NCBI GenBank assembly: GCA_951406725.2
Contig: OX597823.1
Location: 97,526,001-97,590,000 of the forward strand
DNA: 64,000 nt
Direction of reading: 5' to 3'
DNA from: Octopus vulgaris
Taxonomy: Eukaryota
Shown here: positions 56-39,431 of the stretch, in pieces
Position numbering within the stretch: position 1 is the stretch's first letter
Layout of the letters: every line of letters starts with the position of its first letter
The notes under the pieces: generated by a model
The model's input: the letters and a program-made list of their open reading frames with translations, nothing else
The model's database searches: none
What the model was told of the DNA's origin: nothing
Position numbers and translations under genes: made by a program

Positions 56-39431
<39,376 letters not shown>

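What the first reader, a model, noticed from the sequence alone, without database searches (positions are those of the whole stretch)
31892..31913. Invariant P-loop arginine replaced by proline ([10 protein letters not shown]): candidate receptor pseudophosphatase
Seen: codon 31905-31907 is CCT where the CX5R Arg belongs, while KNRY, WPD, the catalytic Cys and the Q-loop are intact and the frame is open. Known: this Arg binds the phosphate and is essential for catalysis. Inference: the only PTP domain is dead or much weakened, giving an adhesion/scaffold or dominant-negative receptor. CCT is one base from CGT, so a recent allele or base-call error is equally possible.
Basis: partly seen in the sequence, partly recalled or inferred. 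Interest (0 to 1): 0.7.

Follow-up and report, generated by a model that had tools for sequence, protein, structure and literature searches.

The report
Dead-enzyme twin of octopus receptor phosphatase
An octopus cell-surface phosphatase gene is present as two near-identical neighbouring copies; this copy has proline in place of an essential catalytic arginine and is likely an inactive, drifting spare, while its twin keeps the arginine.

Summary
CCT at 31905-31907 is in the assembly and gives [10 protein letters not shown] in an intact R3-type (Ptp10D/PTPRB-like) receptor phosphatase. It is not the only copy. A twin gene (copy B), about 140 kb upstream and 1.1% divergent, reads CGT (Arg), as do the O. 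sinensis, O. bimaculoides, Argonauta and Sepia orthologues. The two form a head-to-tail tandem duplication: the joint lies inside one contig, and both forms of the neighbouring intron appear at about 1:1 in DNA runs. In the C-terminal half the window's copy (A) carries 12 derived amino-acid changes against 1 in B, the neutral expectation for A. In 4 of 4 RNA-like runs the spliced exon differs from copy A at two unprinted letters, so A is likely not the main transcript. No run showed base 31906 itself. Best reading: a young duplicate freed from catalytic constraint, likely dead, with B supplying the activity. A kept decoy receptor stays possible (about 20%): A's frame is unbroken and the ectodomains differ by 19 replacement changes against 1 silent.

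The parts
31905..31907 (+). CCT (Pro1332 of P0003) at the CX5R arginine; copy B has CGT
31892..32027 (+). P-loop to Q-loop exon; differs from copy B at 31906, 31955 (silent) and 32001 (Tyr/His)
   Evidence: spliced to both neighbouring exons in 4 of 4 RNA-like runs
29072..29223 (+). Exon with WPD loop (29114) and catalytic Cys (29219-29221)
56..149 (+). Juxtamembrane ectodomain exon (about 980 further residues lie upstream of the window)
7516..7583 (+). Juxtamembrane ectodomain exon
11371..11470 (+). Transmembrane exon; copy-A-derived Pro>Ala (11403) and Val>Leu (11406)
13714..13818 (+). Cytoplasmic juxtamembrane exon; its acceptor is duplicated at 13583 in both copies
14085..14166 (+). Exon before the PTP domain; copy-A-derived His>Arg (codon 14101)
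17067..17157 (+). KNRY exon; copy-A-derived Arg>His (codon 17124), a variable column
19366..19442 (+). PTP exon (DYINANY motif), identical in both copies
23462..23596 (+). PTP exon; copy-A-derived Arg>Trp (23531; Arg in 33 of 44 domains, Trp in none) and Val>Ile (23552)
25748..25870 (+). PTP exon, identical in both copies
33325..33394 (+). Exon ending the Q-loop and PTP domain
39403..39431 (+). Last coding exon with the YxN tail motif and stop
32072..32106 (.). 35-base intron stretch present in copy A and absent in copy B; marker used to tell the copies apart in runs
1..55868 (+). Part of the duplicated unit that lies in the window; at 55868 copy A runs on into other sequence, whereas copy B's equivalent is joined to a second promoter and exon 1

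Best explanation
The window holds one of two tandem copies of an R3-type receptor tyrosine phosphatase gene; this copy has Pro at the phosphate-binding Arg and is likely catalytically dead and drifting free of constraint, while the twin keeps Arg and likely does the dephosphorylating. Shown: the codon, the twin's CGT, the head-to-tail joint, the substitution counts. Inferred: a young duplication (about 1% divergence) made one copy redundant; its C-terminal half then took replacement changes at the neutral rate; Arg>Pro removes the side chain that binds the phosphate and helps close the WPD loop; the copy is a minor or silent transcript that has not yet taken a stop or frameshift.
For: Twin exon at G000:C10:97418703-97418837 with Arg. 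Copy B's 3' flank is joined, inside one contig, to a second copy of the promoter and signal-peptide exon. Copy-A intron letters match contigs of X1, X2 and X14 with 0 differences, a copy-B form is seen in X19, and the arithmetic on bin depths gives arms at about half the shared depth in 4 of 4 DNA runs. A versus B: 32 replacement and 5 silent codon differences in 1397 codons, plus one 1-base gap. Residues 690-1404: 12 changes derived in A, 1 in B (binomial p 0.003); 12.3 expected per copy at the local intron rate. Copy B equals O. sinensis P0026 over 625 residues in a row. RNA-like contigs differ from A at 2 letters of the exon in 4 of 4 runs. PTP1B R221G is almost inactive (PMC9266312 passages).
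Against: Copy A has no stop, frameshift or broken splice site in the 30 mapped segments, where 1.6 (no indels) to 3.9 nulls would be expected under full neutrality, P(0) about 0.21 to 0.02 (the no-indel figure is the sum of its stop and splice terms). Residues 1-689 differ by 19 replacement and 1 silent change, above the 9.2 expected at the local intron rate (P 0.003, a split chosen after seeing the data). The copy B assembly has a 1-base deletion in an A run at codon 280 that would break it if real. Base 31906 was not read in any run. Contigs drop minor variants, so low expression of A is not shown.
Confidence: 0.55

Rival explanations
1. Copy A is a kept, expressed dead-enzyme receptor: a decoy or paired partner of the active copy, with a freed PTP domain and an ectodomain that would be diverging under selection to bind different ligands or to dampen copy B.
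For: Unbroken frame, signal exon, transmembrane segment and YxN tail; 19:1 replacement to silent changes in the N-terminal ectodomain; both forms of the intron marker inferred in runs under two species labels; an independent Arg>Pro on a long branch in one oyster relative.
Against: The ectodomain changes fall on both copies and this region is also fast between species; changes across the whole frame equal the intron rate (32 seen, 33.7 expected); the dominant spliced transcript is unlike A in 4 of 4 runs; no spliced A transcript was seen.
Confidence: 0.2
2. The duplication is real but C31906 is a consensus error, and copy A is an active, loosely constrained second enzyme.
For: No run showed the base; CCT is one base from CGT; polishing is weakest in near-identical duplicates (general knowledge).
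Against: All 4 copy-A substitutions and the 35-base insertion at 32046-32130 were matched without a difference by X1 and X2, and by X14; the change is one of 12 copy-A replacements in this half; cross-mapped reads would tend to erase a copy difference, not create one (inference).
Confidence: 0.12
3. A and B are the two haplotypes of one gene left side by side by the assembly, and Pro is a loss-of-function allele in one heterozygous animal.
For: Two scaffold gaps flank the middle contig; A/B divergence of 1.09% is close to the 1.22% heterozygosity reported for O. vulgaris (PMC10700109 passage).
Against: Haplotypes do not make a 3'-flank-to-promoter joint with a second exon 1; all 4 DNA runs break at 32131, with arm depths near the median of their other listed pieces and shared depth 1.7-2.0 times the arm (contig depth is only a hint, not copy number); 12:1 asymmetry is unlike two alleles of a constrained gene.
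Confidence: 0.1
4. One reading: this is the animal's sole gene of its kind and has become a pseudophosphatase.
For: The codon and the open frame are as described.
Against: The twin in the same genome and all 4 other cephalopod species' orthologues examined have Arg.
Confidence: 0.03

Closest known systems
Drosophila Ptp10D and its duplicate Ptp4E (R3 subtype)
   Same: FN3 ectodomain, one membrane pass, one PTP domain; Ptp10D (3s3e) is the best single-domain PDB match, E 5e-89. Ptp4E is a faster-evolving, largely redundant duplicate (PMC2270841 passages).
   Different: Ptp4E is 40-235 million years old with 89% PTP identity; the octopus pair is about 98% identical in protein, and one copy has lost the catalytic Arg.
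Vertebrate R3 receptors PTPRO, PTPRB, PTPRJ, PTPRH
   Same: Next-best single-domain PDB matches; WPD loop and YxN tail as described for the subtype (PMC5336234 passages).
   Different: They keep CX5R. In the tree the octopus gene groups with mollusc, brachiopod and annelid R3 proteins, not with one vertebrate member.
PTPRQ (the database name of P0001-P0004)
   Same: R3 layout.
   Different: PTPRQ is defined by WPE; this protein has WPD, so the name is not supported.
Receptor pseudophosphatases: PTPRU and the D2 domains of tandem RPTPs
   Same: A PTP fold without activity on a receptor (PTPRU: PMC7320164, title and start of abstract only).
   Different: Those are old, conserved and studied; here the dead state is in one young copy, seen in one assembly, and no non-catalytic function is shown.
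PTP1B R221G
   Same: Same P-loop Arg lost; almost inactive with melting point nearly unchanged (PMC9266312 passages).
   Different: Gly rather than Pro, a somatic human mutation in a cytoplasmic enzyme; Pro itself was not tested there.

Membership tests
R3 receptor PTP | Ectodomain of FN3 repeats | tested here: met
   Pfam fn3, 6 stretches passing E 1e-4, no Ig family listed
R3 receptor PTP | One membrane pass and a single PTP domain | tested here: met
   Hydrophobic segment read by eye at about 1044-1068; one Y_phosphatase match 1153-1383
R3 receptor PTP | PTP domain groups with R3 members | tested here: met
   PDB ranking; tree of 24 domains places it with invertebrate R3 proteins, support 95/97, apart from Lar, PTPRA/E and SHP2
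R3 receptor PTP | C-terminal YxN motif | tested here: met
   Present in all 6 cephalopod proteins printed; motif described in PMC5336234
PTPRQ subtype | WPE in place of WPD | tested here: not met
   WPD at 29114; criterion
Active classical PTP | Intact CX5R | tested here: not met
   Pro in copy A; Arg in copy B
Active classical PTP | KNRY, WPD, catalytic Cys, Q-loop | tested here: met
Functional pseudophosphatase | No measurable activity | not testable with these tools
   Inferred from PTP1B R221G only
Functional pseudophosphatase | Dead state conserved in orthologues | tested here: not met
   Arg in O. sinensis, O. bimaculoides, Argonauta, Sepia; a collapsed copy A in O. sinensis is not excluded
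Functional pseudophosphatase | Expressed and under purifying selection | tested here: inconclusive
   Neutral-rate change and non-A dominant transcripts against an unbroken frame
True tandem paralogue (not haplotig) | Novel head-to-tail joint inside a contig | tested here: met
   G000:C10:97397530; the joint was not checked in reads
True tandem paralogue (not haplotig) | Both forms in every individual, doubled depth | tested here: inconclusive

The most novel reading that the evidence does not exclude
A paired receptor system in the making in the common-octopus group: one R3 phosphatase gene split into an active copy and a full-length dead-enzyme copy whose FN3 ectodomains are diverging under selection, so that the dead copy acts as decoy or brake. 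The same Arg>Pro arose independently in the oyster relative P0017, so this may be a repeated route in molluscs.
Probability: 0.2. Interest if true: 0.65.

Novelty: new variant of a known kind. Interest (0 to 1): 0.35.

Why it matters
Most likely this is an ordinary young duplicate on its way out, useful as a caution: the database models of this locus are mislabelled (PTPRQ, usherin), the intact copy is broken up by an inverted contig, and the only full-length model is the dead one, so anyone mapping reads or cloning the octopus Ptp10D-like gene would pick the wrong copy. If the dead copy is kept and expressed, it would be a natural, 98%-identical active/dead pair in which the birth of a pseudoenzyme can be tested directly, in a receptor class tied to axon guidance.

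Tried and rejected
No listed holder run was on record as RNA; the four used are 'RNA?' guesses, though their contigs are spliced. Four DNA runs gave no cover over the codon; the tool says such a hole proves nothing. The letters that differ in the RNA-like contigs were not printed, so G31906 in transcripts is an inference: O. sinensis has Arg and His, which would give exactly 2 differences. Low-depth intron contigs of the A type (X14) and B type (X19) may be DNA or unspliced RNA and were not counted as expression. A protein search for shorter relatives (104 hits of 129 candidates) returned no octopus transcript fragment beyond copy B's model. A conserved mollusc Arg>Pro lineage was rejected: 6 other oyster proteins checked have Arg and the tree needs 2 changes. 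A DNA search with 10 kb of the middle contig returned repeats only and did not place it elsewhere; about 16 kb of it has no match in copy B's first intron, unexplained. The duplicated acceptor at 13583 is not an A-specific lesion. Both look-ups of earlier findings were empty. Six paper searches listed nothing on this octopus gene, judged from titles and abstract starts only; supplements were not read. No structure or complex was predicted, as neither would decide activity.

Full report
Observation. The acceptor AG is at 31890-31891 and the codon at 31905-31907 is CCT. Thirteen GT-AG exons from 56 to 39431 join in one open frame holding the juxtamembrane ectodomain, a membrane segment, one PTP domain and a YxN tail. 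KNRY, WPD, the catalytic Cys (29219-29221, on the previous exon) and the Q-loop are intact. Database proteins identical to this exon are labelled Octopus vulgaris (P0001-P0003). Arg holds this column in 43 of 44 non-redundant domains, Gln in 1.

Family. P0003 has FN3 repeats and a single PTP domain. Its best single-domain PDB matches are Ptp10D, PTPRO, PTPRB and PTPRJ, and a tree of 24 domains puts it among mollusc, brachiopod and annelid R3 proteins. WPD rather than WPE argues against the database name PTPRQ (criterion from PMC5336234 passages).

The twin. A search of the own genome found a second exon, 96% identical, about 140 kb upstream. It has CGT, and its model P0004 has Arg, as do O. 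sinensis, O. bimaculoides, Argonauta and Sepia. The region reads: exon 1 and the 5' half of copy B on +, a gap, a 94-kb contig holding B's 3' half on -, a gap, then copy A on +. Reversing the middle contig gives two genes head to tail. Inside that contig, B's 3' flank (equal to window 55868) is joined with one base of overlap to a copy of the promoter and a second intact signal-peptide exon. About 16 kb after that exon has no match in B's first intron, which I cannot explain. A and B differ at 885 of 81449 aligned sites, 1.09%.

Paralogue or haplotig. The gaps, and a divergence close to the 1.22% heterozygosity reported for the species (PMC10700109 passage), allow a haplotig. Against it are the joint and the runs. 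Of 24 runs listed I laid 8. X1 and X2 hold the A-specific stretch 32016-32160 without a difference, and all 4 DNA runs start a shared contig at 32131, just after an A/B difference. Contig depth is only a hint, and one DNA run may be the assembly's own source. X14, from another study, also holds the A-type intron exactly, and X19 the B type.

Selection. Over 1397 codons A and B differ by 32 replacement and 5 silent changes plus a 1-base gap in B; 33.7 replacements are expected at the intron rate. In residues 690-1404, 12 changes are derived in A and 1 in B (p 0.003); 12.3 per copy is the neutral expectation, so A fits neutrality and B is constrained. B equals O. sinensis over 625 consecutive residues. 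Of A's four derived PTP-domain changes only Arg>Pro hits a nearly invariant column. Two results cut the other way. A has no null lesion, where 1.6 to 3.9 are expected depending on whether intron indel rates apply. Residues 1-689 differ 19:1, twice the local intron rate (P 0.003, split chosen after the fact), on both copies, in a region that is also fast between species. O. sinensis matches A at some ectodomain sites and B at others, which fits exchange between copies or a collapsed assembly.

Expression. In 4 of 4 RNA-like runs (4 studies, 2 species labels) one contig spans the exon with loose ends matching both neighbouring exons, so the gene is spliced as modelled. Each has 2 letters unlike the window; the positions were not printed. 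A and B differ at 3 places in this exon. The simplest reading is G31906 and C32001, the O. sinensis state, but that is inference. Contigs drop minor variants, so a minor A transcript is neither shown nor excluded. No run showed base 31906.

Mechanism. The P-loop Arg binds the substrate phosphate and helps close the WPD loop; PTP1B R221G is almost inactive yet nearly as stable as wild type (PMC9266312 passages). Pro would lose the same side chain and also the backbone NH (my inference). Copy A would therefore be a folded, dead enzyme if made, and copy B the working one, provided its codon-280 deletion in an A run is an assembly slip (O. sinensis is intact there). The fly pair Ptp10D/Ptp4E is the known precedent for a redundant, faster-evolving R3 duplicate (PMC2270841 passages), but much older.

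Parallel case. Saccostrea P0017 has the same Pro on a long branch (0.11 against 0.008 for its sister), while 6 other oyster proteins checked have Arg. It is independent and rests on one unverified model; my first query contained Pro and so favoured finding it.

Verdict. Decaying or neutral duplicate 0.55, kept decoy 0.2, base error 0.12, haplotig allele 0.1, sole-gene pseudophosphatase 0.03. Six paper searches listed nothing on this locus, judged from listings. Papers seen: passages of PMC10700109, PMC9266312, PMC5336234 and PMC2270841; listing and abstract start of PMC7320164; no supplements. Interest 0.35.

Noticed in passing
G000:C10:97375733-97469640 (L012-L022): Contig between two N gaps is likely scaffolded in the wrong direction; this splits copy B into database models named 'usherin' (P0023, P0025) and a 752-residue piece (P0004), and cuts exon 1 off copy A's model.
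   Followed up: yes
G000:C10, about 97355414 (L010): Copy B has five A's where copy A has six at codon 280, a frameshift if real; likely a homopolymer error.
   Followed up: partly
window 13488-13744: 131-base tandem duplication repeats the splice acceptor just after the membrane exon, in both copies; use of the upstream acceptor (13583) would stop about 20 codons later and give a membrane-anchored ectodomain without the PTP domain.
   Followed up: partly
G000:C10:97371856-97374082 (L012): Copy B has a tandem duplicate of one FN3 exon that copy A lacks; O. sinensis P0026 is longer by about one repeat.
   Followed up: partly
P0017 (Saccostrea) and P0019 (unnamed 91-residue fragment): Same Arg>Pro in the P-loop; P0017 sits on a long branch among oyster proteins with Arg.
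   Followed up: partly
window about 44700-48790: Broken LTR retrotransposon on the minus strand (zinc knuckle, aspartyl protease, RNase H-like matches) beside a DUF4371 transposase-like remnant; shared by both copies.
   Followed up: partly
window about 34500-37080: Array of about 537-base units with an inverted first part, present in copy A and not at this length in copy B.
   Followed up: no
window 22183-23247 and 21363-22198: Reverse-transcriptase fragment and a 342-base tandem repeat in the intron before exon 23462.
   Followed up: no
whole duplicated unit: A/B divergence varies from 0.45% to 2.4% between 10-kb bins, which suggests gene conversion or mixed allelic ancestry.
   Followed up: no
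window 33347: One RNA-like contig (X14) has T for A in the loose end matching the next exon; single contig, unverified.
   Followed up: no
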